From Eledone cirrhosa (Eukaryota), in assembly GCA_964016885.1 (NCBI GenBank), contig OZ024740.1:70866001-70930000 (forward strand): a stretch of 64,000 nt of DNA. The letters are read 5' to 3'. Below, piece after piece: positions 1-61,555 of this stretch (within the stretch, counting starts at the first letter, position 1; each line of letters begins with the position of its first letter). The position numbers and the translations under genes are program-made. The notes under the pieces are model-generated. The model did no database searches, was not told the DNA's origin, and saw only the letters and a list, made by a program, of their open reading frames with translations.

Positions 1-1266
1 ACAGCCTCGAGGAGTTCGGAGAACAAGACCGGCATAGCTAAATAAAGTTCGTATGGTAGACCATCGAGACCCGGAGATTTGCGTCTGCTGCATTGGCTGA
101 GCGCTTCACCGATTTCAGCGGCTGTGATTGGCCTTTCGCAGCACTCCGCTTCGCCGCTCGAAAGACGCGGTAGACCGTCGAGGTATGGACCGAAGTCCAC
201 ATCCCCGTCCGGCCCCACGCCCCCTCCGAACAGTCGAGCAAAGTGCCTTTGAAAGGCCTCGCACATCCGCTCAGGTTCAAGGATCACCCGTCCATCCTGG
301 TCTCGCAAAGACCGAATGGTGGATTTAATCCCACTCTTGGCTTCTGTCACGCGGGCCCAGCTAACAGCGTTGGTCCCCTCGTTTTCTAAAGCACGTATTT
401 TACTTCAGACAACGCAGCCTTCGTGCTTCGCGTCAAAGAACTGGCTCAACGCCGTTCTCGACGCTAACACTCTGTCCACGTCTCCGCTCCTAATCGCCTC
501 TCCTAGTTTATCTGTTAACTCCCTTTCCCTCCTATTTCTATTCGCCGCTAGTTCCTTACTGTAACCTATCGAACTTACTTTAATCTCTCTCTTTAGAGAT
601 ACCCACCACCTGCTGTTGACGATCGCTCCCGTCAACCGCATCTTAACTAAGCTACTAATCCGGTTCCTGTAATCTTTCTTTGCCGGCAAGGACAAGTTCA
701 TCTTCCAGTAACCGGGACCCTGTCTATGCGTTCTATCAAGGTTGACCACACAGGTCACTAATTTGTGATCTGAATAGCCAACCATGAGCAATTCTGGACA
801 ACTAAATACGTTCCTATCCTTACTCCTAACCAAAAACCTATCTAGGTACGATCTAGATTGACCACTGCGGTTTGCCCAGGTCCAGGTTGGCACAGTTGGA
901 AAATCTAGTCGAAATCTATCGACCAGGTCGAATCGATGGAGTAACCCCTTGAGCCCCGCCTTCACCGCCTCCGACGTCCAGCACCAGTAATCGACCCCCC
1001 GGGTCCGAGTGAACAATCTGTACGTCGAGAGCCAGACGTTTATCCAGCAGTACGGCAACCCCACCCCCGCTTCCGGGTTGACAGAGAGATGCGTGCATCT
1101 TAAAGTCATCGAAGGCGGGAGCCAGCTGTCGCACGCTGCTGATCCGACTCTCGCAAACAACCATCACATCTATACTTCGTGACCTGAGGTCACTTAGAAG
1201 CTTTGCTTGCTTCCAAGCTGAGCCCAGGCCACGCGCATTCAAACAGCCAACTCTCAAGTGATCTAT
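1..1266 (-). pseudogene. Copy A ORF2, N-terminal APE endonuclease and linker, disrupted
   Basis: RVGCLNARGL, VCESR, SYLDRFL, SDHKLV, GPGYWKMN motifs; relative to copy C it lacks about 180 bp including the VGDWN catalytic motif (junction near 950). Confidence 0.88.
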
Positions 1267-3130: not shown

Positions 3131-3338
3131 GCGTCCAACAAAGAATTTTTACAGAAAAATAGTTATTTATTTTATTTTACCCCCTAAAAAGGGGGTAAAT
3201 GTAAAAATGTTTCCCTAAATAACAGGGGTAAGTGTTCCAAATGTGTTGCACTGAAAAAATTCACTGGTACTTACTATAGTAAGGGTAAATTCCGATAGAA
3301 TAGCAGAGCCGATGTGAAGCGTGTCTCACTCTATCAAT

Positions 3339-3339
<1 letters not shown>

Positions 3340-3417
<78 letters not shown>
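3340..3417. repeat. (GATA)n microsatellite between Tx1 copies A and B
   Basis: Direct reading. Confidence 0.97.
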
Positions 3418-3656
3418 TGTTTCATTATTAGCCACAGGGGCACAAAAGAAGGGGACAAATACAAAGGGGGAAGTTTACATACAATAAAAACGTGTAAAAT
3501 ACTATCACAAATGCAATTTAAAAATTAATCGATTTTCCCCAAGAGGGAGAGACATTACATATGGGTAGCACATACCCCCGAAAAAAATGTGCAACCCTCA
3601 TCACCAGGAGTACGAAGAGTTTGTACTCCTTTCCTCTCCTCCTCTTTTTCCTCAAC

Positions 3657-6600
3657 CTACAAGCTGATATAGAGAGAAGGCCCATTCACTCAGGCCATTT
3701 TCGCCACTTTCACCCACCTTTCATAAAACTTGCTGGGGTACAGCACCTCTCTCTCCATCTTGATTCTTCTTCCAAAGTGGTATTTGAAAAAAAGAATCAG
3801 TTGTTGGCCGGAGAGAAAGGTGTCTGACCTCAGCCCTTTTAACCTCGTCCACCACCTCTTCCATACAACCACCTCGTCCATACAACCTCTTTCGCCATAG
3901 CTATCACACAAAGGAAAACCGCCTCTCCTTCGTTTTTGAAGGAGGGTGGAGGTTTGATCATGACAATGGACTCGGTGGTCAACCGGGTTGGTCCCACCCG
4001 CGACAATAGTCGTTCTACATAGCCCCACAGGTCGGTAACGCCCGGGCAGTGTACGAATGCGTGCGCGATGGTTTCTTCGTATCGCACGCATCTCGAACAG
4101 ATCTTTTTCGAAAGGTCCCTGCCCGGGCGCCCATGTTTGTAGAGCTTGTCTCGAACTGGTAGAGCTCCTCGATAGCACTGCCAGGCCAGGGACTTTTGGA
4201 AGTTGTCTATCGGTCCCGGTCAGAAGGTTCTACCGAACAGACTAGCCAGTTCGTCTTTCTCTACGCCTAGAGTTTCTCCGAGCGCGTCGTCGCACTTGCT
4301 GCGGACCAACCCTCTATAGAATGACGAAGTGGAGTCTCCGCTGATCGCCGGGTCCGCCTGCCAGAGGGCTGTAAGCGCCTGAGCACATTCGATGTGCCAG
4401 TCACCCATTGTCCTCGGTCTTTGCTTGACCCAGGACTGCAGCTCGGTCAGCGAGACGAGTCGTGGGAAGGCTCGCCTCACGAACGGGGCCCATACCGGTT
4501 GTCCGGTGAGGAATACGTGGCGGTGCCGCAGCCTGAGCGCGTGTTTGCGCATCGTCAGCCACGGTATCCCGGCCCTCCGCCTAAAGGGTGTTGGCAGCAG
4601 ATGGATCTTCTCACCAAAGGAGCCCGTTTCTTCCAAAGGAATTGGAAGAGCGCGCGCTCCATTTTGGTGAGAGTTTTGGCTGCACAAGGCACGACGGTCA
4701 AGCGGTAGTAGATGACGGACGCTATAAAAGTGTTCGCCACCTCCGCTCGACCTTTCAAGGATAGTTTGCACTCGGCCCACTTCTGGGTGAGCGCAAACAC
4801 CTTGGTCGTCACCTCGTTCCAGTTCTTCTCCACCTGGAGGTCCGGACCAAACCAGACCCCGAGCAGCTTTACCGGTCCTTCCGTCCAGCGTCCGACGACG
4901 CCATCGGATCGCATCGGTTTGCCTCTCCACGATTCGAGTTGCAAACCGACGGACTTGTCCCGGTTCAGCTTCGCTCCTGTGAACCTTTCGTATTCCTTCA
5001 GTAAGGTGCCGACTTCCTCGATTTGCGAGGTGCTCGACACCATTACTGTCACGTCATCGGCGTAGGCCGACGCTGCTTTCCGCAGTCTCGGTTGTAGAGG
5101 GATGCCCTGCAATAGCTCCAACTTCCGCAGTAGTGGCTCGAGAGTCAGTACGCACAGAAGGGAGGAGAGAGGGCATCCCTGTCGGATGGATCGCGTGATA
5201 TGGAACGGCTCCGAGAGGTAGCCGTTCACCTTGACCCTTGAACAGATGTTGCTGTTGTGCATTGCAGCAATCCAGCCCCTGAACACGGGTCCGAAGCCTG
5301 CCGCCTCGAGCACCGCATCCAGGTAACGATGGTCAACCCTATCGAAAGCCTTAGACTGATCCAAGTTGATCAGGACCCCACCGAAGCCGGGTTTACACCC
5401 TACCCTCTCTATGAAGTATCGCATGAGGTGGAGGTTGTCGTATATGGACTTGGTCGGGATTGCGCATGTCTGCGCTTCTCCCACCAGGTTTTCGACGACA
5501 AGCGCCAGCCTCTTTGCCAACACCTTCGCCAAAATCTGTAACTCTGTGTTTAGAAGAGTTATGAGCCGGAAGTTGCCTATGTCATCCTCCTTATTCTCGT
5601 CCTTCCTGACTAGTGTGACTACGCCCCTGGTCACAGAACTGGGAATTCTCCCGTTCTGCTGCCAGTTGCAGTAGACCGCTTCCAGGAGACCGGAGAACAA
5701 GTCCGGCATTGCTACGTAAAATTCGTAGGGTAGACCGTCGAGACCTGCATTGGCTCAGCGCGTCCCCTATCTCAGCGGCTGAAATCGGCTTTTCGCAGAA
5801 CTTCTCCTTGCTGTCCGAGAGTCGCGGTAGGCCGTCGAGGTATGGACCGAAATCCATAGCCCCTCCCGGCGCGCCGCCCTGCCCGAACAGCTGAAAGGCC
5901 GCGCACATCTGCTTCGGCTCACGTATCACGCGTCCGTCTTGGTCCGTCAAAGACCGAATCGTGGACTTGTTGCCACTTTTCGCCTCCGTCACCCGGGCCC
6001 GGCTAACAGCTTTGGCTCCCTCGTTACCCAGAGCACGTATTTTGCTTCTGACAACGCAGCCCTCGTGCATTGCGTCGAAGAACTGGTCTAAGGCCGTTCT
6101 CGTTGCTAGCACGCTGGCTACGTTCCCACTTCTAATTGCCTCTTCTACTTTATCTACCAGTTCCTTCTCGGTCCTATTTCTATCTAACGCTAATTCTTTA
6201 CTAAAAACTAACGAGTCTAATCTAACTGCCCTCTTGAGAGAGTACCACCATCTGTTGTTGACAATGGCCCCTGTCAAGTGCTGTTTAACTAAAGTGCTAA
6301 TCCGTCTACTGTAGGCTTTGCATGTCGGTAACGACAAGTTCAGCTTCCAGTAGCCGGGTCCTTGTCTATGGGTTCTATCAAGGTTGACCATGCAGGTCAC
6401 TAGTTTGTGGTCTGAATAAGCAACCATGAACATTTGTGGACAGCTTAACATGTCCCTATTCTTATTTCTAACTAGAACCCTATCTATGTACGATCTAGAT
6501 GTTCCGCTAATATTAGTCCACGTCCTCAGTGGCACAGTCGGAAAATCTATTCGATATCTATCGGCCAGGTCAAATCGGCCGATTAACTGTTTGAGGCTGT

Positions 6601-7079
6601 TACACCCCCCCCCCCTTTATCGGGACATGCTCCCACATAGTCTCAACGTGCATCTAGGATTCCATTCCAGTCCCCCACTAAAAGCAAGGAGCGGGACGTT
6701 CCCAGAAAAGTCTCTAGACGTTTGAAGAAGTCTGGCCGCGGTGTCCCGGATGGAGCATAGGCGGCCAGAAGGCTCCACCTTCACTACCGTCAACATCTAG
6801 GACCACCAGTCGACCCTCCTGGTCTAGATGTACCGTCTGTGTTACGAGGTCCAGGTGTTTCCGCAGCAAAACGGCAACCCCGCACCCACCTCGCGGCTGA
6901 CAGAGAGATGCGTAGATCTCAAAGTCGTCGAAGATGGGGGCCAGTTGTTGCTCGCTGTGAATCCCGGACTTGCAAATGGCTACTACATCCATACTGTGCG
7001 ACCTGAGGTCGTTTAAAAGTTTGCCCTGTTTCCAGGGCAGCCCCAGGCCGCGTACACATCCAACTCTTATATTGGCCAT
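3657..7079 (-). pseudogene. Copy B ORF2 (APE endonuclease + reverse transcriptase), several frameshifts
   Basis: MANIRVGC, SDHKLV, LDQSKAFDRVDH, RQGCPLS, AYADDV, ETIAHAFVHC motifs. Confidence 0.92.
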
Positions 7080-8821
7080 ATTGGTGCTGAAAAGTTAAAA
7101 GAAGAGGAAAAGAAATCACTCACCTCTTTGTCTCCTGGGGACCAGGCTGCACGATTTCTATGGGGGTGTTGGAGGGGTTGTCTGGGTGGGTGGTGGTTTC
7201 CGGTGGGGTGGGGATGGAGATGTTTGGTGGGGAGGGGTGTCTGGTGGGGTAGGGTGTCTGGGGTGAGGGTGGGAAACATTTTAAAAGGACGCGGTTAATG
7301 GGTTTAACACAGGGATTACCCACGTCCTTAGGAAAGTTTTCCTTTAAAGACTTATAGGTGTCCGTAGGGAGCCTAATCATCTTTAAATTAGGTCTGTCTG
7401 CACAGTTCGAAAAGTTTTCCCTTCGGTTTTCACCGAAGGGTCGTGAGAGATGACCTCCATTAAAGTTTTGTTTTCACTGTTTATGTATGTGTAATGTTCT
7501 TGTTGTGTTGCGGTGATTTTTGTCTGTTGTTCCTGTGGGAGCTTTCGTTTTGTTGTAGGTGTTTGTGTTTGGAGTGATGTCGTGGTTTTGTTTTCGGGAC
7601 GGGGGGGGGTTGTAATGTTTGTGTTGTTTGTGTTGGGGGTTGTATGTTTGTAGTGACGTTTGTTGCTTTTTTGTTTTCTTGTGGTGTCTTTTCTTCTTTC
7701 TTTTCGAACGGAGAGGCTCTCCTTCATCGTCACTTGGTGATGATGACGGGGCCTCGTCCGTTGTGGTGTATGTGTTATTTGGAAGGGGTATGTTTTGGGG
7801 AGCTGGTGTGTTTGTGGGTGTTTTGCAGTGGTTTTAGGTGGAGTTGGGTTGGGTGGGACTGTGCTTGCAGTTTGATTTGTTGTTCTTGTTTTGGTTATGT
7901 TTGCGTGTTGTTGTTGCTGTTGTTGTTGTTGTTGTTGTGGTGGTGGTGGTGGTGGTGGTGGTGGTGGTGGTGGTGGTGGTGGTGGTGGTGGTGGTGGTGG
8001 TGGTGGTGGTGGTGGTGGTGGTGTTGTTGTTTGGGGTGTTGGCAGTAGTGCCTCTTTTTTTGCAGCTAGCTGAGGACAGTAAGCCTTCAGGTGACCACTG
8101 CTTAAACAGTGGTAACATGAAGGCCGCCGACCCTCAACAGAAATGTTTATGTATGAAATCCCATCCAGAGGCACACGTTGGGGTATTTTAGCTATCCGTT
8201 CTGGCCTCATTTGGAACAGAACTTCCAGGCTTGTACCATTGAATGTGCCTCTGGAGGACTTTCCCATTGCAATTATTGTGTCTTCATCGAAATCGATGAG
8301 GCCAGTCAAAATCCACCAGACGTTTACGTTTGGTGTAATATTTGAAATTTTAATTTTTGGGGTTCTTTTTCCCATATATGTGGGGGAAAAGGTGTAAAAG
8401 GGGGACACAATTGGCGACACAGAATATGTTTGTGCATTCAATTGGTCTTTCATCAGCACCGAAATGCTTCCAAAAAGTTTACCTTTTTGGATGAAGGCAA
8501 TATCCTTCATTGATTTGTTCAAAACCAGTTCAATTTCGTTTTGGGATAATTGGACTGGTTTTTTAAACACATTTGAAACTGTCCTAAAAATTATTGTTTT
8601 TAGGATAGTTTCTCGACGTAACTGTTGAGGAGAAGTGATGCTGAAAGCACCACTCTCACCAAAAGTTACATAGTGCTTTGCTTCTTTCAACAACTCCCTA
8701 GCATTGGAGATGTCTCGATATGTAAACAGTTCCGTCTTTTGGACGGTTTGTGCAAAGGAAATCTTTTCCTTGTTTGTGGAGTTGTTCGTGTTGCTGTTGT
8801 TGTTGGTGGTGTTGTTGTTAT

Positions 8822-8852
<31 letters not shown>

Positions 8853-8942
8853 CTTGTTGTCATGATTGTTGTTGTTCTGGTTGGTGTTGTTCACATTTTT
8901 CATGTTATTGGTGTTGGTGTTACAATTAACGTTCGACAACAT
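7067..8942 (-). pseudogene. Copy B ORF1 (gag-like), frameshifted, with in-frame poly-Asn, poly-Pro and poly-Gln tracts
   Basis: CYHCLSSGHLKAYC knuckle; QMRPERIA and VEGRRP motifs shared with copies A/C. Confidence 0.85.
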
Positions 8943-9272
8943 GTTTTCAAAACTGACGATATTTTTAACGTCTTTCAATGAGGTGTTGAGTGGAGATGAC
9001 TGCGAGCTTAACACTCTCACCGCCTCTCCACCACTTCTAGTACTGGACTTAATGCAAAATTTTGTTTACAATTTTTCACCGAAAAAATTTTTTCAAACGA
9101 AAATTTCACCCCAGGAAGGGGTGAAAATGAGTTGACCCACCGTCTGAAGGTCCAGACGTGGGGTCAAGCTATAAAATAGTATCAAATTTAACAATAATTT
9201 TTTTGATTTCTTATGTAGAAAATCAACAAAAACTTACCAGTGAACTGGCACGCGTCTATCGAGATGAGAGAG

Positions 9273-13398: not shown

Positions 13399-13768
13399 TG
13401 CATAGTAGCTGCCAACTCGTTTTCGAGTACGGCCACTACTTTATATCCATGTAGGAGAACCCCTACCGATGCGCTGAACGAGTGTGACTTTTTAGTCCAG
13501 CCAGCGACTTGAAAACTCTGGTACAAACACTACACTTGTGACAATTATTGACACATAGTGCTGGGCCCATGGTACCATGTGACGACAAGTGCAGAGAGAT
13601 CTCCAGATATAAAGCAATGCCTGTGCCGTGAAGCTTTTATAGTGAGCAAAGGCACTACACAAAGCCAGTCCCACTCTCTTAACCAAGATGATATTTACCA
13701 AAAAGAAGAACAAGTCAACATCATTTGATACCATCAGGGTTGCAGGTGTTATATCAGAGTTTTCCTTC
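13399..13768 (-). mobile_element. RTE-derived bipartite non-autonomous element, 5'-truncated copy
   Basis: Near-identical to 15389-15991 and 53469-54032; (TATG)n on both sides. Confidence 0.85.
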
Positions 13769-13826
13769 ATACATACATACATACATACATACATACATAC
13801 ATACATACATACATACATACATACAT

Positions 13827-15290
13827 CGCAATTACAACCGTTGTACACAGTGGACCTACGAGTCCAAGTGTGCATATTTGGCAGTAAAACGTGGAAGAGC
13901 TGTGCCCTCCTCTAGAAATCTAGAGATGAACGGCCTGACAATACAACCTCTGCAGTCAGGTGACAACTACAGATATCTTGGACAGGATGAGAATGTCAGA
14001 TATGATGGACCCATAAATAAGGAGAAAACCAGAACTGAATACCTCAGAAGAGTAAAGAAAATATGGTCATCAGAACTGTCAGCATACAACAAATACATTG
14101 CCCACAATACTTATGCTGTGCCAATTCTAACGCCAACATTTGGCCTACTGAACTGGTCATTGCAAGAACTAAGTGAGATGGATGTTAGAACTCGAAAACT
14201 TCTCAGTGTTACTGGGAACTTTAACATCAATGGTGATGTGGATAGGCTATACTTCTCACGCAAGGAAGGTGGCCGGAGTCTAAAATCAATATTAACAACA
14301 TATGAGACCCGGATAGTGACACTGAAGCAACACCTTCAACAGAGGAAAAAGGTTGGCAACCATCTTGCCCAGGTTTATGACCATGAAAAAAGAAATATCA
14401 TTAGAATAGCGACTGATCTGGAGGAGAGATATGGAATAAAGCCCGATATAAATCTCTCACCCAGAGAAATCGGAAGATCCTATTCAATGTTCAAACAAGA
14501 AAAAAAAATTGACCAATTTATAGAAAAAGTTGTGCATGGATACTTGAGGCGTAAAACACAGACCATAGAGGGGATAAACCACTCAAAAAGCCTGGCATGG
14601 AGTTCCGACAAGTTTATGACATCACACCTTGAGGGATATCTCTATGCAATACAGGAACAAGAACTCCCTACCAAATATCTGCTGCACAAAAGAGGAGGGC
14701 CAGCAGCTGACAATAAATGTAGGCTATGTAAAACAAAGATCGAGGATGTAAGCCACATTGTTGCCAGCTGCGAAAGAATGTCATCTCGCTACTACCTCCC
14801 CATGAGACACGATGGGATAGCTAGAACCATCTGGAACGCACTTCGGAAAACAAAATTAACAACAAACGAGGAAGAATATATTGAGACAGATGGCACTAAG
14901 GAATACTGGTGGAACCTGAAAATAAAAACTGCCACCAGATTAAAGCACAACCGGCCTGATATTGTAGTTTGGGACCACACATTGAAAACGTGTTCTGTTG
15001 TGGAGATCAGCTGCCCACTTGATGTAAACGTTGTCAGAAAAATACAGGAGAAGGAGGACATCTACGGACCATTGATGAGGAGTTTACAAATCCAGTATCC
15101 AAGATACACCTTTAGCTTCATACCCATCATTATTGGTGCTACGGGTTATATACCAACCCGCTTGGACCAAAGTATGACTGAACTTGGATTTGCGGACAAA
15201 AAGCGCAGCTCCCTAATTCATAGTCTACAAATGGCTGCGATAGCTGGCACCTTCAAAATTTGCAAAACATTCTTGCGTTTCAAGGGATGA
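13827..15290 (+). CDS. RT C-terminus/thumb + CCHC Zn finger + restriction-like PD-(D/E)XK endonuclease (N-terminally truncated)
   Basis: YRYLG, DRLYFSRKEGGR, CRLCKTKIEDVSHIVASC, RHD, RPDIVVWD..VEISCP..KEDIY; no internal stop. Confidence 0.88.
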   Translation, partial: RNYNRCTQWTYESKCAYLAVKRGRAVPSSRNLEMNGLTIQPLQSGDNYRYLGQDENVRYDGPINKEKTRTEYLRRVKKIWSSELSAYNKYIAHNTYAVPILTPTFGLLNWSLQELSEMDVRTRKLLSVTGNFNINGDVDRLYFSRKEGGRSLKSILTTYETRIVTLKQHLQQRKKVGNHLAQVYDHEKRNIIRIATDLEERYGIKPDINLSPREIGRSYSMFKQEKKIDQFIEKVVHGYLRRKTQTIEGINHSKSLAWSSDKFMTSHLEGYLYAIQEQELPTKYLLHKRGGPAADNKCRLCKTKIEDVSHIVASCERMSSRYYLPMRHDGIARTIWNALRKTKLTTNEEEYIETDGTKEYWWNLKIKTATRLKHNRPDIVVWDHTLKTCSVVEISCPLDVNVVRKIQEKEDIYGPLMRSLQIQYPRYTFSFIPIIIGATGYIPTRLDQSMTELGFADKKRSSLIHSLQMAAIAGTFKICKTFLRFKG

Positions 15291-23939: not shown

Positions 23940-25788
23940 ATGGCGGAAAAGATGGCAGACATGTCTGCCATTAGCTCTGCCACGCCCCCCCCCCCCCCCC
24001 AAGTCTGAAGAACAAAAAATAATTACAACAAAATTAGACAACAAAACAAACAAGGAAAATGAAAAAACAAATGTTAAGGAAAATGAGCAAACGGAAAACA
24101 AACAAACAGAAAATAATACAAATAACAACAGGGCAACTTTCGCCCAGAAAACAAAACAATCAATAATATACACACCAATTGACTTAACTGCCGCCAGAGA
24201 AAAACTGGCCGAAGCGAAAAAACAAATAGTCTTGGGAGAACGGAATGTTTTCCATTAACTCCCCCCCCCCCCCCCAGAATTCAAGAAAGCCAGAACAGAG
24301 AGCACAGTTCTCTTCAGAACTATACTGAACCAGACAAGAAAGCCAGCACAGCCCAGCCAAATGGAAATAGAGTTGGTCCTAAAAGACTATATGAAGAATA
24401 TTCTCTTCATACGAAAGGACCGAGTCTATGGCAGCATTTCGGTCCTAACAAAAGACAAGGAAACGGCGGAGAAGCTTTCCCTAAGCCCACTCTCATCGAC
24501 AACATACAGCTTCTATCCCTCCTACATGGGTAGAAGAACACAGAGAGTAAAAGTAAAAACAATGCTGCCCACAATGGACTTCTGGTGGGCTATTGCTGGC
24601 TTCATAGACATGGGCGAAGACACAATGCTGTCAATGGGGAAGGCAACTGGAGATGCGTTCCTGGGAATGGGCCTCGACATACTAGTCCAAATGAGGCCCG
24701 AAAGAATAGCACAAATCCCGGATCGCATCTGGCTGGATGACCTTACCCCAATAGACATAATTGTAGAGGGGAGAAGACCAGCATGCTATTTATGCATGGA
24801 AAGGGGACACGTTAAGGCTAACTGCCCGAAACGTATCCCCCAAAAAGGACTATTGCCCACACCCACCACAAACAGTACACCAACACCACCCACCTCCAAA
24901 AATACACTAATACCACACACAGCAAACAAAATACAGACACCACCAACCACAAAGACAACACAAACATCACCACCACCAGCACCAAACACAAGCACGACAC
25001 AAAAATCACCACCACCAACCACAACACAAACATCACCACCACCATCACCAACCACAAGCACGACACAAACATTACCACCACCACCACAAAACCCATTCCA
25101 AACAAATAATAAAAAAAACAGTAACAAATCTACTCCTCCCGCAAAAAAACAACAACCACACAACACGTCCCTCCCACCTAGCGCTGAAGAGTTTCCCCCA
25201 ACTTCTGAAGAAGGAGGAGAAGCCTTCAGACAAGTTAAAAGAAAAAAAAGAAAACACACACCCAGCACACCACAAATAACCCACACACAAACACCAACTC
25301 CAATCAAAAACACCCCACCCTCAACAAACAAAAATAAATCTGCGCCTCCCCTCTCCGAAACATTGACAGCATCACAAAAAAAGACGTTGCAATACACATA
25401 TATAAATAAAGAAAACAAAAAACTGGTTAAATTAATAAACAATAACCCTATGGTGCAGACCGAAGGGCCAAACTTTATCTCAACAGAGAACTTCACCCAT
25501 TTAAAAATGATAAAGGTCCCTCTGGACCTTTATCGTTCCTTAAAAGAACAATTTAGACGGGATGTGAGCCCCCCCCCCTGTTTAAAACCGTTAAATCGCG
25601 TCCTCCTGAAAGATTTCCCCATAACCGCCCCTCTCCCTGACACAACTCCAAATACCCCAACCCCACCACATACGGGTACCCCCACACCACCACAAAACAT
25701 CCCTCCACCCAACACACCTGATGCCATGGAAATTACACAACCCGGAGAGGTAGGTGCTTTTCTTTCTTCACTTTCAACACCAAAATAG
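23940..25788 (+). pseudogene. Copy C ORF1 (gag-like, CCHC), frameshifts at or near C runs
   Basis: CYLCMERGHVKANC; continuous 475-aa frame 24361-25788; probable start MAEKMADMS. Confidence 0.87.
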
Positions 25789-28700
25789 ATCAATTGAGAG
25801 TTGGCTGTTTGAACGCGCGTGGCCTGGGCTCAGCTTGGAAGCAAGCAAAGCTTCTAAATGACCTCAGGTCACAAAGTATAGATGTGATGGTTGTTTGCGA
25901 GAGTCGGATCAGCAGCGTGAGACAGCTGGCACCCGCCTTCGATGACTTTGAGATGCACGCATCTCTCTGTCAACCCGGAGGCGGGGGGGGGGGTTGCCGT
26001 ACTGCTGGATAAACGTCTGGCTCTCGACGTACAGATTGTTGACTCGGACCCGGGGATCGATTACTGGTGCTGGACGTCGGAGGCGGTGAAGGCGGGGCTT
26101 TCAGACTGGTCGGTCTTTATGCCCCCTTCGGGGCGGAAAGAGCCGACTTCTTCCAGCGTCTGGAGACTTTTCTAGGAACGTCGCGTTCCCTGCTTTTAGT
26201 GGGGGACTGGAATGGGATCCTAGATGCGCGTTGGGACTATGCAGGGGCATCTCCCGATAGAGGGAGGTGTAGCAGCCTCAAGGGGTTACTCCATCGATTC
26301 GACCTGGTCGATAGATTTCGACTAGATTGTCCAACTGCGCCAACCTGGACCTGGGCAAACCGCAGTGGACAATCTAGATCGTACCTAGATAGGTTTTTGG
26401 TTAGGAGTAAGGATAGGGACGTATTTAGTTGTCCAGAATTGCTCATGGTTGGCTATTCAGATCACAAATTAGTGACCTGCGTGGTCAACCTTGATAGAAC
26501 GCATAGACAGGGTCCCGGTTACTGGAAGATGAACTTGTCCTTGCCGGCAAAGAAAGATTACAGGAACCGGATTAGTAGCTTAGTTAAGATGCGGTTGACG
26601 GGAGCGATCGTCAACAGTAGGTGGTGGGTATCTCTAAAGAGAGAGATTAGAGTAAGTTCGATAGGTTACAGTAAGGAACTAGCGGCGAATAGGAAGGAAA
26701 GGGAGTTAACAGATAAACTAGAAGAGGCGATTAGGAGCGGAGACGTAGCCAGAGTGTTAGCGGCGAGAACGGCGTTGAGCCAGTTCTTTGACGCGAAGCA
26801 CGAAGGCTGCGTTGTCCGAAGTAAAATACGTGCTTTAGGAAACGCGGGGACCAAAGCTGTTAGCTGGGCCCGCGTGACAGAAGCCAAGAGTGGGATTAAA
26901 TCCACCATTCGGTCTTTGCGAGACCAGGATGGACGGGTGATCCTTGAACCTGAGCGGATGTGCGAGGCCTTTCAAAGGCACTTTGCTCGACTGTTCGGAG
27001 GGGGAGGGGGCCGGACGGGGATGTGGACTTCGGTCCATACCTCGACGGTCTACCGCGTCTTTCGAGCGGCGAAGCGGAGTGCTGCGAAAGGCCGATCACA
27101 GCCACTGAAATCGGGGAAGCGCTCAGCCAATGCAGCAGACGCAAATCCCCGGGTCTCGATGGTCTACCATACGAACTTTATTTAGCTATGCCGGTCTTGT
27201 TCTCCGAACTCCTCGAGGCTGTCTATTGCAACTGGCAACAGAACGGGAGAATTCCCTGTTCTGTGACCAAGGGCGTGGTCACGCTAGTGAGGAAGGACGA
27301 GAGAAAGGGGGACGACTTAAGTAACTTTAGGCCCATAACTCTGCTGAATGCAGAGTTACAGTTTTGGCCAAGGTGTTGGCGAAGAGGTTGGCGCTTGTGG
27401 TGGGTGGTTTGGTGGGAGACGCGCAGACATGCGCTATCCCGTCCAGGTCCATTCACGACAACCTCCACCTCATGCGATACATCATAGAGAGGGTTGGCAA
27501 CGAACCCGGCTTTGGTGGGGCCCTGATTAACTTGGATCAATCTAAGACGTTCGATAGGGTCGACCATGGTTACCTGGATGCGGTGCTAGCGGCGGCGGGC
27601 TTCGGACCCGTTTTCAGGGGCTGGATTTCTGCCATGCACAGTGGCAACATCTACTCTAGGATTAAAGTAAACGGCTAGCTCTCGGACCGTTTCAAATCAC
27701 CCGGTCCATCAGACAGGGGTGCCCCCTCTCCTCCCTTCTGTACGTATTGACTCTCGAGCCACTGCTGCGGAAATTGGAGTTGCTGCGGGGCATACCCCTG
27801 GAACCGGGATTGCACAAAGCGGTCTCGGCCTATGCCGACGACGTAACAGTAATGGTGGCGGACGCCTCGGAAATCGGGGCGATCGCCACCCTACTGGAGG
27901 AATACGAAAGGCTGACAGGGGCTAGGCTGAACCAGGACAAGTCAGTCGGTTTGCAACTCGGAACGTGGAGGGGCAAACCGATGCCGTTAGACGGTGTCGT
28001 CGGGCGGTGGACGGAGGGCCCGGTGAAGCTGCTCGGGGTCTGGTTCGGACCGGACCTCCAGGTGGAGAAGAATTGGGGCGAGGTGACGAGCAGGGTGTTT
28101 GCGCTGACCCAGAAGTGGGCCAAGTGCAAACTATCACTGAAAGGTCGGGCGGAGGTGACGAACACTTTTATAGCGTCCGTCATCTACTACCGCCTGACCG
28201 TCGTGCCTTGCCCCAAGGAAAAGCTCACCATCATGGAACGCATGCTCTTCCAGTTCCTCTGGAAGAAGCGGCCTCCCATGGTGAGGAGATCCATCTGCTG
28301 CCAGCACCCTTCGAAAGGAGGGCTGGGTATGCCGTGGCTGTTGATGCGTAGGCACGCATTGAGGCTACGGCATCTACAGGTATTCCTCAACGGTCAGCCG
28401 GTGTGGGCCCCGTTTGTGAGGCGAGCCTTCCCACAGCTCGTCTCGCTCACCGAACTGCAATCCTGGGTGAAGCAAAGACTGAGAAAACTGGGCAACTGGC
28501 ACACCGAGTGTGCCCAGGCGCTCACGGCTATCTGGCAAGCGGACCCGACTATCAGTGGAGAATCCACCTCGACATTCTATAGAGGGTTGGTGGCTAGCAA
28601 GGGCGACGACACCCTTGGAGAGTCGCTAGGCATGGAGGAGGACGAACTGGCCAGCCTGTTCGGTAGAACTTTCGGCCCGGGACCCATGGACAACTTCCAG

Positions 28701-29213
28701 AGGTCCCTAGCCTGGCAGTGTTACCGGGGGGCTCTGCCCGTTCGAGAAAAGCTCTACAGACACGGGCGCCCGGGCAGGGATCCCGCGAAAAAGATCTGTC
28801 CTAGATGCGTGCGCGACGAGGAAACCGTTGCGCATGCACTGGTACACTGCCCGGGCGTTGCCGATCTGTGGGGCTACGTCGAACGACTGCTGTCGCGTGT
28901 GGCGCCGATTCGATTAACCGCCGAGTCTGTGGTGAACATCAAGCCGCCTCCTCCCTTCAGAAATGAAACAGAGGCGGTCTTTCTGTGCGTAATAGCCATG
29001 ATGAAAGAGGTTGTGTGGTGGACGCGCCTGAAAGGTCTGAGGTCGGGTGACTTTCTCTCCGGCCATCACCTGGTTTACTTCTTCCGATATCACTTCGGAA
29101 GAAGGATCAGGATGGAGAGAGAAGTGCTTGGCCCCAGACAGTTTTATGAAAGGTGGGTGAAAGAAGCAAGAATGGCCCGTGTAAATGGGCCTTCTCTCTA
29201 CATTGTTCTGTAG
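25785..29213 (+). pseudogene. Copy C ORF2 (APE + RT + C-terminal CCHC), frameshifts and one stop
   Basis: VGDWNG, SDH, DQSKTFDRVDH, RQGCPLS, AYADDV, CPRC..EETVAHALVHC. Confidence 0.93.
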
Positions 29214-29447
29214 GTGAAGAAGTGAAGAGGAAAGGGGGAGCGCCTCCTCTCTGGGCTTCCCCCGCGAAAAGAGTTGCACACTTTTCGGGGGTATGTGCAA
29301 TCCCCAACACATCTCCCTTTTGAGGACTTTTTATTGTTATATTATTATTGTTATTCCTTTTTCTTTACTCGATTTATGTAAACTCCCCCACTGTGTAAAT
29401 GTCCCCTTCTTTTGTGCCCTCGTGGCAAATAAATATCTATCTATCTA

Positions 29448-30513: not shown

Positions 30514-30519
<6 letters not shown>

Positions 30520-30831
30520 ATACATTAACAGAGAAAGCTTTAAGCTATACTCTGACTGGCTTCCATCTCACTCAACAAACATTAGGATATACCTTAGTAT
30601 AATCCCAATTTTACGTTTGGGGTGCTAACTATATGTATTTTGCGGATAGCCAGTTGTATTATTTTATATGAGACATAATTAAAATACATCTCCCTTTCCA
30701 AACAATTGTTTCATTATAAGTTTTCTACAAGTTGGGAAAAATGTGTCCAGGTTATGTAGAAGCCTGCACATAGTCCGTAGGAATATATGCAGGTGGGCAC
30801 TTATAAATCAACAGTGGATGCCCATCAAACA
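30514..30831 (-). mobile_element. Solo copy of the ~300-bp hammerhead-bearing repeat (core mutated to CTGTTGA)
   Basis: Near-identical to 60403-60720 and 61131-61435; (TA)n on both sides. Confidence 0.85.
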
Positions 30832-30889: not shown

Positions 30890-30891
<2 letters not shown>

Positions 30892-31135
30892 CGAGGGAAA
30901 AGTGGTAAGGAACCAGGTGGACCATAACGCACCAAAGTACTCAATACTTAGGGTAGTAGAGTGGGTAATAGGAGTAAGTAAGACCCCGACGGCTGAGCTC
31001 AAGCCGTTTCGACGGCTAATTCTGTACTGAATTAGCCGTCGAAACGGCTTGAGCTCAGCCGTCGGGGTCTTACTTACTCCTATATATCTATATATATATC
31101 TTTGAGCTCTGCCGTCGGGGTCATACTTTTTCCTA
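30890..31135. mobile_element. Fold-back hairpin element in (TA)n
   Basis: Perfect ~55-bp inverted arms 30968-31083 around a TGTACT loop. Confidence 0.85.
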
Positions 31136-40243: not shown

Positions 40244-40411
40244 AACAAGTAGGACCCCGACCGCTAATTCTGCGTCCAGAATTAGCCGTCCAAACGGCTT
40301 GAGCTCAGCCGTCGGGGTCCTACTCCTTCCTATTACCCACTCTACTACCCTAAGTATTGAGTACTTTGGTGCGTTATGGTCCACCTGGCTCCTTACCACA
40401 TTTCCTTCGTT
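40239..40411 (+). mobile_element. Fold-back hairpin element in (TA)n (left arm internally deleted)
   Basis: aggaccccgac..gctaattctg / cagaattagc..gtcggggtcct; same family as 30890 and 45886. Confidence 0.8.
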
Positions 40412-40414
40412 ATA

Positions 40415-40457
<43 letters not shown>

Positions 40458-40567: not shown

Positions 40568-41609
40568 CAGAGAGAGATATAGATATGTGTATCCTGTGTT
40601 CAATTGGTGGTAACCACAGTAAGTAAGGTACTCAATACATAGTAGAGTATATACAATGTTTAATATGGAAATGACTTCTACAGGAATAGAACGGTTTCAT
40701 TCGAAGTATTGTATGTGTTTATATACATACGTATGCGTTTGTGTGAGCGTACATGTGTGAGCGTACGTGTGTGTGTGTGCGTGTGTGTATGAATGTTTCA
40801 TTTGGCTGCCACCTTTCGTATACCTAATCACCTTTCAACAAACTACTTCCTTCTTCCCATTCTACTACTACTACTAGTACGACGACGACGACTGCTACTA
40901 CTACGACTACTACTACGACGACGACTGCTACTATTACTGCTGCTGCTACTACTACTACTTACTACTATTACTACTACTACTACTACTAATACTACTACTG
41001 CTGCTGTCAATAACATCACTATACTCATCATCTCGCCAGCTCTCACTACTTCTTACCAATACAAATTTCCAATTTAAAGCAATTTAGACACTTGAGAATA
41101 ATTTGAAGAGATGTCTCATTGCGTAATCTTAAAGTGTGCTAATGTAATTTGTGTCTTAAATTGTTAATTAAAAATGGACATATAGTCACAATTACGTCTT
41201 TCAATTAATGAGCTGCCTATTAAAATACATGGGTGAATTATATCAATTCAACTCCAATTCAAAGTCCCGTTTGTCATCTTCAATGTGTGCGTATGTGCAT
41301 ATATAAATATATGCGTGTGTGTGTGTGTATTTGTGTGTGTACGTATGTGTTTGTGCGTGCATGTGAATCCATGCGTATGTGTGGTGGGGGGGGAGTGCAG
41401 ATTTACTCTAGACATATATAGAATACATAACATTGTTAATATTATCTTTTAAATCATTTTTTTTTTTTTTCATGTTGTATGACTTCCTTACAATTTGTTT
41501 AGAACAGTAACATTCTTAAATACATCCTAAACGTTTTTATTCCTTCATGTTCTTATCTTCAAGATAAGCTTTTATATAGTAACAGAGCCAATGCGAATGG
41601 TGTAGATGA

Positions 41610-45838: not shown

Positions 45839-45885
<47 letters not shown>

Positions 45886-45887
<2 letters not shown>

Positions 45888-46076
45888 AAAAAGTATGACC
45901 CCGACGGCAGAGCTCAAGCCGTTTCGACGGCTATTTCTGGTTCAGAAATAGCCGTCGAAACGGCTTGAGCTCTGCCCTCGGGGTCATACTTTTTCCTATT
46001 ACCAACTCTACTACCCTAAGTATTGAGTACTCTGGTGCGTTATGGTCCATCTGGTTCCTTACCATAACTCCTTCGT

Positions 46077-46077
<1 letters not shown>
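45886..46077 (+). mobile_element. Fold-back hairpin element in (TA)n
   Basis: ~52-bp inverted arms 45887-45995 around a short GTT loop. Confidence 0.85.
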
Positions 46078-46110
<33 letters not shown>

Positions 46111-54795: not shown

Positions 54796-57450
54796 ATGAT
54801 GGAGAAATTCTCGGTGAACTCTTCACTTAAGGACATCCCTTGCCCGACATAAAAGAATTCACAAGGTTGGCCATAGGTAAATCGGATTCATTTGTCCGTA
54901 GAATGCGTTGGAAGGCCTTCCATTTCGACAGAGGAACACCAACAAACCACCCCAGGGAGGGAACGCGCGGCATAGAGGAAATATTCAAATCCAGAAGAAA
55001 TCCACCACACAATAAATACTTGGAGGAATTCGAGACTGAAATGTCTAACATAGTGTCCAACTTTAAGTTTAGGAAAAACCCACTCAGGAGAAAAAGTTAC
55101 CTGAGACGACTAAATGGTGATCTAGTAAAATTAAAGAACTCGACCGGTATTTTAGTGCACGCAGATAAGACTAACAACCTGTACGATATGGATAGAGTAA
55201 CTTATGATGATTCGATAACCAGAGAACTTAGGAAAAGCTACAGAAAAACTACACGGGCCAACCTGGATTTAATTAACACGAAGGCCAATAGCATCATGAT
55301 TAAACTGGGTATTGAGGATAAAACCGAACCCTTCCATCCTAGAACCCCGAGGATTTTGCTGAAGGACCACAAATTGAACTTTGAATCATTAAGACCTGTC
55401 AGGCTGATAGCCCCTTTGAAGTCGGGCATAGGAATCGTAAGTAAAAACATCCTTGATAAAATAATCTCCACTCTAGTTAGGAGATCGAAGCTCAAGTTGT
55501 GGTCAAGAACTAGTGAGGTAATTAACTGGTTTGAGAAATCGCAGAATAAGAATAGCACTAAGTTTATACAGTTCGATATCTCTAATTACTACTCTTCAAT
55601 CTTTCCAACTCTTCTAGGTAGGGCCCTTAACTTTGCTAGCTTACACACCGACCTTACATCCGAGGAAATTAGCATTATTCTCCTAGCTAGGAAAACCTTA
55701 ATTGAATTCAACGGTGACCTGTGGACTAGGAGGGATTGGCTAGACAATTTCGACATCACCATGGGATCCACGGACTCGGCCCAGGTGACGGATCTGGTGG
55801 GCCTTTACCTCCTTGACTGTCTCGGAGCGGAAATGCCCCACCTGGGAAGCGGCGCTTACCGTGACGACATCTTGTTTACTGTGTCGTTCCATAATAATAG
55901 TATGGTAAAGAGGGTGAGGAAAAAAACTTAGCAAATTCTTCAAGAGCATAGACCTAAGTATAGTATTTGAAGAGAATTTTAAAATAGTTAATTTTCTAGA
56001 TGTTACACTTAACCTCAATTCAGGACTCCTCCAACCCTACCACAAACCCAACGAGAATCTAAACTATGTCAACGCAAAATCGAACCACCTTAGAATAGTC
56101 ACTAACGGTATTACCAAAAGCGTCTCTAGTAGAATTTCAGGACTATCTTCCAATGTAGATACCTTTAATAAGATCTCGAATTACTATAATAGCGCCCTGG
56201 AACGCGCAGGGCATAGCGAGGGAATCTCATTCAAACGTCCATTAAATAGTAGAAGTAACATTGCCCGCGATAGCTTAGGCCTAAATAGTGACACTCTAGT
56301 TAACAGCAGGCGTGATACGAGGGAGGATTCATATAGTCTTCATGTTGTACTGCCGCCTAGTCCCAGTGCTGTTGGTACTAATAGAAACAGCCACCCAGGT
56401 ACTAACACTGGGTCTGAGCAACGTAACGCCAGTGGAAACTCTTAATTGTGGAACCGATAAAACTACCGTTGAACGCAGTATGGAACGAGGGTCGAGTGGG
56501 GGGAATAGGGACAGGTGTAGCAGACGCATAGCGGATACAACCCCAGCTATCGAGGGTAACCCCAATAGCCGCACGGAGGGTACACCGCCCTGGATACTTG
56601 GGACGATTCCGAACACAATCGTGACACCCCAGGACACCATCGACCCACAGGTAATTTCCAGTTACAATAGACCAGTAACTACTAGGGAGACAGGTAATTC
56701 TAATATAGTTAGTAGGAACAAGAGGCATCGGACCAGAAAAGTCCTGTGGTATAATCCCCCTTACTCCACTGGTCTGACCACTAGTATAGCTAAGCTTTTA
56801 TTTAGGGCCTTAGACAAATGCTTCCCTAGATCGCACAGATATTATAAAATATTCAATAGGAATACCATCAAGCTGTCCTACTCCACAACTAGTAACATAG
56901 CTCAGAATATAGCTAAGATGAATTATAGTAGACTTAGGACAGCCCATGAGGGAATTAGGGATGGCAGGAACAATGGCAGCTCTATTGAGGAACTGACTCA
57001 TACACTTGAGGCGAGTCGGGTCTCCCCAACCCCAGGGAATTTACCCATAGAGCAGACTGGAACTGAGACCCGACCCCAAAGGTACCGTGGTCCATCAGGA
57101 ACTACCCAGATCGATAGCAAAAAATGTAACTGCAGAAGCACCGCCACCTGCCCCATGACTGGGAAATGCCTTACCAAAAACATAGTCTACGACTGTAAGG
57201 TCTCAACTCAGGATAGAACCTTTAGGTATGTTGGGGCAACTGCCACGGAATTTAAGGATAGATGGTATAATCACCGCTATACCTTTAATAGATTAGATTT
57301 TAAAAATAGCACGGCACTTTCGGAATTAGTGTGGAAGCTTAAACATCAGAATATAGAGCACTCCTTATCCTGGTCCATAGTTTGCTCAGCCCAACCTTAT
57401 AACGGCAGCACTGGCGTCTGCAATTTATGGATAGCTGAAACTTTTAATAT
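54796..57450 (+). pseudogene. Penelope-like element (probably Naiad clade) RT + GIY-YIG endonuclease, disrupted, C-terminus missing
   Basis: SSLKDIP, RRMRWKA, HADKTNN, QFDISNYYSSI, TMGS, AYRDD, FLDVTL, WYNPPYS, KIFNRNTIKLSYS, CNCR..CPM.GKCL..IVY..YVG..FKDRWYNH; frameshift near 54840 and stop at 55929. Confidence 0.9.
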
Positions 57451-57675
57451 TATGATCATTTCAATGACCGGGTTCCGTATGAATCCGGTGATATCATCAG
57501 GTATTCGAAATATAATAAATGAATGTAATAGATAAAATCCATGGGTATGAAAATCGGTCGTCCTCGGGTCTATGATTTTCAGCCCCATGGATTTTATCTA
57601 TTACATTCATTTATTATATTTCGAATACCTGATATCACCGGATTCATACGGAACCCGGTCATTGAAATGATCATA
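57451..57675. repeat. ~100-bp-arm inverted repeat carrying a hammerhead motif in each arm
   Basis: Left arm (minus strand) CTGATGA-TATCACCGG..CCGGTCATT-GAAATGATCATA; right arm has a 3-nt core deletion but retains stem I ATAC/GTAT. Confidence 0.85.
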
Positions 57676-57979
57676 GTATAATAAACCTTTCAAGGATTTA
57701 CACAAGTCCAGCCTCCTGTAATTATATTATAATATTTAACTCCGTACTAGCACCACCAACTACAAAAACGAAGACGGTTGAACTGCTTTACGTTGAGTAC
57801 TCTCCATATTATTACATTAAGATTGACTATACGGAATTGACCAGCTCTATCCAGTGGTGAACCTTCAAACCTAAATATATATATATATAATATAAAAGAA
57901 TCTACAGGACTAGAACTGTTTCATTCGTGAGAAATCATCAGGAAGCTTACTTACTGTGGTTACCTCCGATTCAACCCGG

Positions 57980-58079
<100 letters not shown>

Positions 58080-59364: not shown

Positions 59365-60584
59365 TTCACACCCATACCTACATAGATAACGAAACATACA
59401 GACACACACATATATACATACATATGCGCAAGCACACGCGCGAACACACACAACCACTCCCTGAAAATATATAAAAACTGCTTATCCATTTAATGCTACG
59501 TACGTCAATCACCCGCAAGCCTCTTCCCTGGCGAGATGGCTCTTTCACAACAGATAGTTTTATCACCAGTCTGGAATTAGCTGTCGAAACGGCAAGAGCT
59601 CAGCTGTCGAGCCCCAACTCTCTCTCTAATACATACATACCTATACATGTTTATGTACATGATGTTATTAATTTCACCATCAATATATATATTCATATAT
59701 GGATGGTGAAATTAATAACATGCGTATATTTATATATACACACACATATGAGTATACATATATATACATACCTATATGTATACATACATACATACATACA
59801 TACATACATACATACATACATACATACATACATACATACATACATACATACATACATACATACATACATTTTTAATCGCAAGGCTATGCTTGAACTACAT
59901 CATCATTATCATCATCACTCGTAGATCTTTTTTATTGTTTACGGGAAGTGGGAGGTTGATGTTGGCGACGTTTCCTGTAACATTCAAATGTGTGTTGTTT
60001 GCTTTCCACTACTACATGCACGAAAACTGTATGATAGAAGGATGTAACAAACAGCATTGAAAACAACACAAATAATCTTTCATGTAGACAATAAAGAACT
60101 TCTATATTTTTTTGAAACCAAACGTTTACTGCACATTATTTACAAAAGCGGTCTGTGTTAGCATACTATTTACAAAATATGAAGTGTGGGTTCGATTCTC
60201 GCACGCGTTTATGCGCATTTTTTTTTTTTTTTCGTTCTTGGGGTTTATATGCCCTGTTATTTGACAATTTTCTGTACGACAAAATCCAATTCAAATGCGT
60301 AGAAATGTCCGTGATCTCCAGCAGACAACTGATGGAGGTAAATATCCCCCGTTCGTGCCTTCCTCCCTCTTATATATATATATATATTTAATATATTAAT
60401 ATATTTAATACATTAACAGAGAAAGCTTTAAGCTATACTCTGACTGGCTTCCATCTCACTCAACAAACATTAGGATATACCTTAGTATAATCCCAATTTT
60501 ACGTTTGGGGTGCTAACTATATGTATTTTGCGGAAAGCCAGTTGTATTATTTTATATGAGACATAATTAAAATATATCTCCCTT

Positions 60585-60705
60585 TCCAAACAATTGTTTC
60601 ATTATAAGTTTTCTACAAGTTGGGAGAATGTGTCCAGGTTATGTAGAAGCCTGCACATATTCCGTAGGCATATATGCAGGTGGGCACTTATAAATCATCA
60701 GTGGA
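60585..60705 (-). ncRNA. Type I hammerhead with branched stem II (copy 1)
   Basis: TCCA-CTGATGA-TTTATAAGT-[two hairpins]-ACTTATAAT-GAAACAATTGTT-TGGA. Confidence 0.78.
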
Positions 60706-61314
60706 TGCCTGTCAAACATCGATATAAAAAAACTCTCTTACCGATGTCAAATCCAATGTTAGCGATGGTCCCTCTCCGTATCAGAATGACCGCCAAATTT
60801 GAAATTCCAGCAGTCTCAGAATGAGAAATTTTACGCTGTCATCAAGCGGAAAGGGGAGGTCATCGCGAAACATAAGAAAGTAAAATAATATACACGCGGG
60901 TCAATTAATTTTTTCAACAATTTTAACCTTGCGTGTGAAGAACTCAATTAGATTTTTTTAAAATAAATATATGCATGTATTATTTATACACGCATATTGG
61001 TATTTTCTTAGGCTAAAAACAGAGATATGATACCAGAATAACAATCAATATTTCATAGTAATAATAAATACGGAAATTTACGCTTAAAAGGTATCTGGAA
61101 ATATTCATCTCAGGTCAAATCAAGAGTATAATATTTAATACATTAACAGAGAAAGCTTTAAGCTATACTCTGACTGGCTTCCATCTCACTCAACAAACAT
61201 TAGGATATACCTTAGTATAATCCCAATTTTACGTTTGGGGTGCTAACTATATGTATTTTGCGGAAAGCCAGTTGTATTATTTTATATGAGACATAATTAA
61301 AATATATCTCCCTT

Positions 61315-61435
61315 TCCAAACAATTGTTTCATTATAAGTTTTCTACAAGTTGGGAGAATGTGTCCAGGTTATGTAGAAGCCTGCACATATTCCGTAGGAA
61401 TATATGCAGGTGGGCACTTATAAATCATCAGTGGA
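61315..61435 (-). ncRNA. Type I hammerhead with branched stem II (copy 2)
   Basis: Same as 60585-60705 apart from a loop substitution. Confidence 0.78.
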
Positions 61436-61455
61436 TATATATATATATATGGATG

Positions 61456-61486
<31 letters not shown>

Positions 61487-61518
61487 CATACACATATATA
61501 TACATATATATATGTATG

Positions 61519-61555
<37 letters not shown>

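What the first reader, a model, noticed from the sequence alone, without database searches (positions are those of the whole stretch)
60403..61435. 730-nt tandem hammerhead unit with branched stem II: candidate large retrozyme / circular RNA
Seen: two near-identical ~300-bp direct repeats 730 bp apart, TA-rich flanks, no convincing ORF. On the minus strand each has stem I TCCA/TGGA, intact CTGATGA and GAAA, palindromic stem III ACAATTGT (site GUU), and an 8-bp stem II (TTATAAGT/ACTTATAA) opening into two further hairpins (CCTGCATATA/TATGTGCAGG and TTCTACA/TGTAGAA). The upstream copy begins exactly at stem I. A third, core-mutated copy lies at 30514-30831, so the unit is mobile. Known: metazoan non-LTR retrozymes are tandem type I hammerhead repeats of a few hundred nt that yield circRNAs and are thought to use Penelope RT. 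Inference: double cleavage would release a 730-nt monomer; the size and multi-branched stem II look unusual.
Basis: partly seen in the sequence, partly recalled or inferred. Interest (0 to 1): 0.85.

Follow-up and report, generated by a model that had tools for sequence, protein, structure and literature searches.

The report
Octopus retrozyme copies record ribozyme cuts
This is one young copy of a protein-free jumping repeat with over a thousand copies in this animal genome; it carries a predicted self-cutting RNA motif, many copies begin just after the predicted cut, and it is likely pasted in by a Penelope-type retrotransposon, probably from a circular RNA.

Summary
In detail: two repeats 730 bp apart, 305/306 identical, each with a type I hammerhead whose stem II opens into two hairpins. 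They are not LTRs. The locus is a 5'-truncated, 1.4-unit head-to-tail insertion of a non-coding family (at least 1,037 copies; units of 722-743 and 993 nt) sitting in (TA)n.

Copies share a fixed 3' end about 180 nt after the predicted cut and have variable 5' ends, which is the Penelope-like footprint. 5' ends pile up just after the scissile bond (24 of 94 at risk, against 55 of 1,570 elsewhere; none in the 15 nt before it), which suggests cleavage in vivo. Tandem repeats within a copy share private mutations (8 of 16 pairs, against 2 of 32 controls), which suggests one unit was read more than once, probably a circle. The fixed end resembles (35 of 44 nt, weak on its own) that of a young Hydra-clade Penelope family with intact ORFs, a candidate partner.

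The size is not unusual for animal retrozymes. No RNA evidence was obtained. The scan has noted similar octopus retrozymes on other DNA. Verdict: a variant of known animal retrozymes with a testable mechanism.

The parts
60401..61436 (-). Whole insertion: 1.42 head-to-tail units (1036 nt), 5'-truncated, in (TA)n
61315..61435 (-). Upstream type I hammerhead: stem I 61432-61435/61315-61318; core 61425-61431; stem II 61416-61423/61332-61339; hairpins 61380-61410 and 61341-61378; palindromic stem III 61320-61327; predicted cut 61319/61318
   Evidence: sequence; co-variation
60585..60705 (-). Downstream hammerhead with the same layout; predicted cut 60589/60588
60589..61318 (-). Predicted 730-nt monomer (cut to cut), non-coding
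   Evidence: no blastx match to the Hydra-type ORF below E 0.6
60707..61130 (-). Part of the unit present once in this insertion
60401..60440 (-). Fixed 3' end of the family (inferred reverse-transcription start, near 60407); resembles the fixed end of a Hydra-clade Penelope family
61437..61555 (.). (TA)n-rich 5' flank (target microsatellite)
60371..60400 (.). TA-rich 3' flank; no target-site duplication can be read
30514..30831 (-). Separate short insertion of the same family with the same 3' end; core mutated to CTGTTGA

Best explanation
This is one young insertion of an abundant non-coding repeat family with a conserved hammerhead motif, likely copied into (TA)n microsatellites by a Penelope-like reverse transcriptase and endonuclease from an RNA that is likely cut at the hammerhead and probably also exists as a one-unit circle. 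Shown: copy number, fixed 3' end, variable 5' ends, (TA)n flanks, no ORF, and co-varying ribozyme helices. Inferred steps: (1) copies with two hammerheads are transcribed on the minus strand; (2) the ribozymes cut after GUU, likely as a pair through the palindromic stem III, and release a 730-nt monomer; (3) some monomers are ligated into circles; (4) a Penelope protein, most likely of the Hydra clade, nicks (TA)n and starts reverse transcription at an internal site about 180 nt after the cut; (5) a cut template lets the enzyme run off at the cut (about 180-nt or 910-nt copies), while a closed junction lets it run on into a second or third unit and remake two-ribozyme source copies. My odds per step: Penelope machinery 0.85, cleavage in vivo 0.75, circle 0.55, the named Hydra family as partner 0.4.
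For: Fixed 3' end in 45 of 48 loci picked by other parts of the unit. 5' ends in the 22 nt after the cut: 24 of 94 at risk (18 of 82 first pass, 6 of 12 second pass) against 55 of 1,570 in other windows and 7 of 326 in other TA-rich windows. Of 199 copies reaching that region, 30 stop there, 16 of them (by eye) within 11 nt of the cut, and none in the 15 nt before it. Stem III palindrome changes on both sides (ACAATTGT to ACGATCGT), and the cut-site base is U, A or C, never G, in 132 segments. Tandem repeats share private variants in 8 of 16 pairs against 2 of 32 nearest-neighbour and 3 of 300 random pairs. The junction is precise in all but 2 or 3 of 148 crossing segments. 4 of 21 copies stop at one unit length. 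The longest copy found is 2.3 units, with no long array to act as master. A young Hydra-type family with intact 713-aa ORFs ends in a similar sequence, in register. Internal start of reverse transcription and AT-rich nicking are shown for a Penelope element in PMC11167929; Hydra elements insert in (TA)n in PMC8557442.
Against: The cleavage-competent single ribozyme lies 9.2 kcal/mol above the best fold, and stem I has probability 0.01 in the folded circle. The pile-up window holds an ATAT microhomology and the foot of an extended helix; one other window reaches 5 of 31, not significantly lower (Fisher p = 0.34). Only 2 exact (TA)n-to-cut junctions exist genome-wide against 630 intact junctions for the patterns used. 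A pure circle does not explain stops at the cut on the second pass. Similarity to the Hydra family is not significant by nhmmer (E about 5), and no canonical hammerhead was found in that family's own 3' region. About ten 5' ends needed a manual choice between three alignments. In PMC11167929 ribozyme activity was not needed for insertion in vitro, and in the 2026 preprint 8 of 9 retrozymes did not cleave.
Confidence: 0.62

Rival explanations
1. Linear RNA only. Read-through transcripts of two-ribozyme copies are partly cut, and longer-than-unit copies arise from uncut precursors, template jumps or collapsed master arrays, with gene conversion homogenising tandem repeats. No circle is needed.
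For: Second-pass stops at the cut (6 of 12) need a linear template with one cut and one uncut junction. Other hammerhead families in this genome are noted to form long arrays (earlier findings, unchecked).
Against: No array beyond 2.3 units among the 20 fetched of the 40 best-scoring of 3,938 candidates. Junctions are precise, whereas template jumps usually leave scars (own knowledge). Private variants are shared across tandem units, including all three in L196.
Confidence: 0.2
2. The ribozyme is vestigial or rarely active. The unit spreads as an ordinary non-autonomous Penelope element, and 5' ends gather after the motif because reverse transcription stalls at its helix or joins through ATAT microhomology.
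For: Poor monomer fold; a U.U pair at the base of stem II; many stops lie at the ATAT run; few exact junctions; weak activity of metazoan minimal hammerheads in PMC4209133.
Against: Sharp edge at the scissile bond (16 against 0). Core bases are at least 96% conserved, and the palindrome and the NUH rule are kept through subfamily changes. Other TA-rich windows are not enriched.
Confidence: 0.11
3. The unit is the pseudo-LTR and untranslated region of an autonomous Penelope element that I did not find, so most copies are its truncated ends.
For: Same insertion footprint as Penelope elements; many Hydra-type families are present, and only about eight were inspected. One has the same stem III and GUU site (L248).
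Against: Copies run head to tail through the whole unit up to 2.3 times with no ORF. 5' flanks are (TA)n or unrelated sequence. A profile of 18 units found only family copies in 48 Hydra-type loci.
Confidence: 0.07

Closest known systems
Metazoan non-LTR retrozymes (Cervera and de la Pena 2020, PMC7229834: passages and sections 14 and 17 read; Li, Clavereau, Pollet, bioRxiv 10.64898/2026.07.22.740005: parts 1-3 of 5 read)
   Same: Non-coding head-to-tail units with a type I hammerhead, low GC, thousands of copies, size within the reported range, proposed Penelope dependence.
   Different: Longer than the 170-400 nt circles tested. Dispersed short concatemers (median 373 nt, at most 2.3 units found) rather than long arrays. 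Stem II is branched, with no evident loop 1-loop 2 contact. Circle formation is not shown here. In the parts read, the papers do not analyse insertion ends.
Penelope-like elements with minimal hammerheads (PMC4209133, parts 1-2 of 4 read; Poseidon PAc, PMC11167929, parts 1-2 of 4 read)
   Same: Short stem I, long stem II, palindromic stem III suited to dimers; pseudo-LTRs from partial tandems; fixed 3' end inside the RNA, downstream of the ribozyme; AT-rich targets.
   Different: No ORF. No 30-40 nt tail was seen, and inverted arms are rare (2 of 88 loci). PAc reads did not end at its cut site, whereas copies here do.
Hydra clade of Penelope-like elements (Craig et al. 2021, PMC8557442: section 11 and passages read)
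   Same: (TA)n targeting. A young family in this genome with RWR, DKT and CxCX5C motifs has a similar fixed end.
   Different: The finding encodes no protein. The match is limited to about 45 nt and is weak on its own.
Plant LTR retrozymes (PMC4918200, search listing only; described)
   Same: Two ribozyme-bearing direct repeats about 700 nt apart.
   Different: Those have type III hammerheads, true LTRs and 4-bp duplications. Here the repeat length varies from copy to copy.

Membership tests
Metazoan non-LTR retrozyme | Type I hammerhead with intact core in each unit | tested here: met
   (by inspection and co-variation; Rfam gave no match)
Metazoan non-LTR retrozyme | Head-to-tail repeats with at least two complete ribozymes | tested here: met
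   window copy; 6 of 89 sampled copies cross two junctions; up to 2.3 units
Metazoan non-LTR retrozyme | Non-coding, low GC, unit within 50-1000 nt | tested here: met
   ranges
Metazoan non-LTR retrozyme | Self-cleavage of the RNA | tested here: inconclusive
   indirect only: 5'-end pile-up against a poor monomer fold
Metazoan non-LTR retrozyme | Accumulates as circular RNA | not testable with these tools
   needs RNA data; only indirect signs
Penelope-mobilised non-autonomous element | Fixed 3' end, 5' truncation, partial tandems, microsatellite target | tested here: met
Penelope-mobilised non-autonomous element | End shared with an autonomous family in the same genome | tested here: inconclusive
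   35 of 44 nt in register, 0 of 1000 shuffles, but nhmmer E about 5
Autonomous Penelope-like element | RT plus GIY-YIG ORF between pseudo-LTRs | tested here: not met
Plant-type LTR retrozyme | Type III hammerhead in fixed-length LTRs with 4-bp duplication | tested here: not met
   type I; variable 5' ends

The most novel reading that the evidence does not exclude
The genomic copies are a fossil record of the whole retrozyme cycle: ribozyme cuts made in the germ line, rolling reverse transcription round a 730-nt circle, and recruitment of one specific, still-intact Hydra-clade Penelope protein by mimicry of its start site. That would give a matched enzyme-RNA pair that can be reconstituted, with a naturally branched hammerhead stem II.
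Probability: 0.27. Interest if true: 0.78.

Novelty: new variant of a known kind. Interest (0 to 1): 0.5.

Why it matters
Two questions are open in the papers read: whether Penelope-associated hammerheads cut in vivo (PMC8557442 calls their function unclear; PMC11167929 found no reads at the cut), and whether Penelope enzymes really mobilise animal retrozymes from circles (proposed in PMC4209133 and PMC7229834). Here the insertion ends bear on both, and a young intact candidate partner sits in the same genome, so a published in vitro assay could test the pair directly. The class itself is known, and the scan has noted many octopus families like it, which limits the surprise.

Tried and rejected
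Rfam at gathering and E-value thresholds: no hammerhead match, only microsatellite noise.

Sequencing runs: no RNA holder listed. Laying three contig runs of one sample showed only that the family is abundant and varied.

The Hydra-type remnant in the window (54831-57455) as partner: its 3' region shares nothing with the unit. Family B's end as the pseudo-LTR of the ORF in L014: a long (TA)n lies between them.

An exact (TA)n-to-cut pattern as a genome-wide test gave 2 matches. It is too strict to measure the pile-up and is reported against my reading.

A lenient anchored alignment overshot into TA runs and was replaced by a masked alignment. One search's window at the one-unit position failed to wrap, so that count was made by hand. 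Two of six reference units were skipped because the anchor motif was absent.

A-to-I editing: A>G 78 against T>C 49 on the ribozyme strand (p = 0.013 uncorrected, six comparisons), too weak to use. Pfam has no model for the Hydra-type ORFs.

Literature searches found no cephalopod retrozyme or branched-stem-II description in this library: octopus + hammerhead ribozyme, octopus + Penelope + hammerhead, retrozyme + target-primed + microsatellite + truncated, cephalopod + retrozyme, non-autonomous Penelope + hammerhead, branched stem II. Subscription papers (for example on dimeric Penelope hammerheads), Repbase and the supplements of these papers were not seen and may describe it.

Full report
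Coordinates: q1 is window 61436 on the minus strand and the unit is q1-730. The predicted cut lies between q118 and q119. The genome is 3.0 Gb and rich in microsatellites. I infer an octopus from that and from earlier scan notes; no tool names the organism.

Observation. The repeats are 60401-60706 and 61131-61436, 305 of 306 identical, 730 apart. The cut-to-cut unit is 33% GC with no long frame. The region folds better than shuffles (z = -2.8, 2 of 200 as good). Rfam finds no hammerhead, plausibly because of the 76-nt branch in stem II. The third copy is real and core-mutated.

Family. A 27-mer at the 3' end has 1,037 exact matches and the reversed control has 0. Further subfamilies lack that word, so this is a lower bound. 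Units are 722-743 nt. A 993-nt variant with an internal duplication occurs in 6 of 20 loci. In 48 distinct loci picked by the internal part or the ribozyme, 45 end at q293-310, followed in most by (TA)n, while 5' ends vary. The two 300-bp repeats are therefore the overlap of a 1.42-unit concatemer, not LTRs. For a sample not chosen by length I took 88 loci from the first 100 listed matches and scored 89 copies, dropping one arm of an inverted pair. Median length is 373 nt, 19 exceed one unit, 64 cross the ribozyme junction once and 6 cross it twice. A long query scored 40 of 3,938 candidates; the longest of the 20 fetched is 1,706 nt. Inverted arms occur in 2 of 88 loci.

Ribozyme. In 132 segments the core positions are at least 96% conserved. 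The cut-site base is U, A or C, never G. The U.U at the foot of stem II is G-C in 14, and the stem III palindrome switches on both sides. On 71 of 118 distinct sequences, chosen by me to balance subfamilies, 95.8% of cells pair, against at most 50% for slid controls. Five pairs change on both sides (33 of 500 shuffles reach this) and the covariation score is 0.132 against 0.085 (0 of 500). These changes reflect a few subfamily events, not 79 independent ones. Helix I, stem II and the second hairpin barely vary and so say little. The cleavage-competent monomer costs 9.2 kcal/mol, and stem I is absent from the folded circle, while the palindromes self-pair at -6.4 and -10.0 kcal/mol. This fits the dimeric minimal hammerheads of PMC4209133.

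Sign of cleavage. Other windows give 55 of 1,570, other TA-rich windows 7 of 326, and the window just upstream 1 of 70. Ends were taken, about ten by manual choice. Across all fetched loci, a mix of biased and unbiased sets, 30 of 199 copies stop there. By eye 16 keep letters of q119-129, and none of the other 169 stop in q104-118 (p = 2.7e-5). Against this reading: the window contains an ATAT microhomology and the foot of an extended helix; one other window reaches 5 of 31 (p = 0.34 for the difference); and exact (TA)n-to-q119 junctions number only 2, against 630 intact junctions. The sharp edge at the scissile bond is the main reason to prefer run-off at a cut RNA end, followed by slight trimming.

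Sign of a one-unit template. Tandem repeats in one copy share variants found in at most 3% of other copies in 8 of 16 full pairs, against 2 of 32 nearest non-partners and 3 of 300 similar random pairs (p = 0.001). One variant is in all three units of L196. Of 148 segments crossing the junction, two carry inserted letters at the bond and one aligns poorly. Four of 21 copies stop at one unit length (hand count, p = 0.006, TA microhomology possible). A circle read more than once explains these. It does not explain second-pass stops at the cut, which need partly cut linear multimers as well. Gene conversion or template jumping are not excluded.

Machinery. A fixed end inside the RNA downstream of the ribozyme, 5' truncation, partial tandems and AT-rich targets match the Poseidon element PAc (PMC11167929). 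Hydra-clade elements insert in (TA)n (PMC8557442). The genome holds several Hydra-type families. One is young: the 150 scored of 11,460 candidates are 94-100% identical, and all 12 long-frame copies that I picked carry a 713-aa ORF. It has RWR, DKT, CxCX5C, YRDD and IVY..YIG motifs, and its Atlas look-alikes carry RT, GIY-YIG and HTH_animal families. Its end motif is followed by its own leader in 23 of 43 places and by TA- or CA-rich sequence in nearly all the rest. That end matches the finding's end in register at 35 of 44 nt. Anchored scores are 51-56 against nulls of 26-28, with 0 of 1,000 shuffles as high in four subfamilies; five other Hydra-type 3' regions score 35-47 against 59. Unanchored, the match only just exceeds the shuffle maximum, and nhmmer gives E about 5. 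No canonical hammerhead was found in that family's own 3' region. It is a candidate, not an established partner.

No ORF attached. The unit shows no coding remnant. 5' flanks are (TA)n or unrelated sequence. Nearby Penelope ORFs were separated from the element by microsatellite or other repeats in the four cases inspected (L014, L191, L199, L269); other neighbours were not read in full.

Comparison. The finding meets the sequence-level definition of a metazoan non-LTR retrozyme; cleavage and circles are untested. Its size is within published ranges. It differs in its branched stem II and in its dispersed short concatemers with a readable insertion footprint. Earlier scan notes report the same class on other octopus DNA (15 findings) and disagree on whether starts at the cut are real in other families. 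None matched this sequence or place. I rate it a new variant of a known kind, interest 0.5.

Noticed in passing
window 54831-57455 (+): Frameshifted Hydra-clade Penelope-like remnant (RWK, DKT, CxCX5C, GIY-YIG-like); an abundant family, cut off here by another insertion.
   Followed up: partly
window 57455-57860: Inverted pair from another hammerhead-like family (core damaged here, intact in L007 and L097).
   Followed up: no
window 57870-57985 (-) and 40600-40710 (-): Short hammerhead family with the same U.U foot of stem II, a short stem II and a GUA site, often as inverted pairs.
   Followed up: partly
window 30890-31130, 40300-40420, 45880-46080: Very common two-armed repeat with a GCCGTCGAAACGG hairpin, ending in (TA)n at two different points.
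   Followed up: partly
L006, L009, L108, L135; L233, L243, L244: GTATTGAGTA lies near the fixed ends of two other families and in some copies of this one; a similar TTGAGCRC lies just upstream of Hydra-type start codons. Possibly a shared recognition motif.
   Followed up: partly
719 kb of fetched loci; window 17961 (-), 45210 (+), 45576 (-), 50462 (+): More than a dozen different type I hammerhead-like families with palindromic stem III and long stem II.
   Followed up: no
L258, L259, L260, L262, L266, L270: Subfamily with a 993-nt unit made by internal duplication of q295-558.
   Followed up: partly
L162:2730-3210: Old, diverged member with stem I changed on both sides (CCCA/TGGG) and core CTGAAGA.
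   Followed up: partly
L248:2570-2625: A Hydra-type ORF is followed by a minimal hammerhead with the same ACAATTGT stem III and GUU site as the finding.
   Followed up: partly
L199:2894-3950: Three tandem 486-nt units of another hammerhead family.
   Followed up: no
window 1-9100 and 24260-29220; 13692-15290: Inverted copies of a LINE with endonuclease and RT frames, and a separate LINE 3' fragment with a weak zf-RVT match.
   Followed up: no
family alignment q1-300: Mild A>G excess on the ribozyme strand (78 against 49), possibly A-to-I editing of the template.
   Followed up: partly
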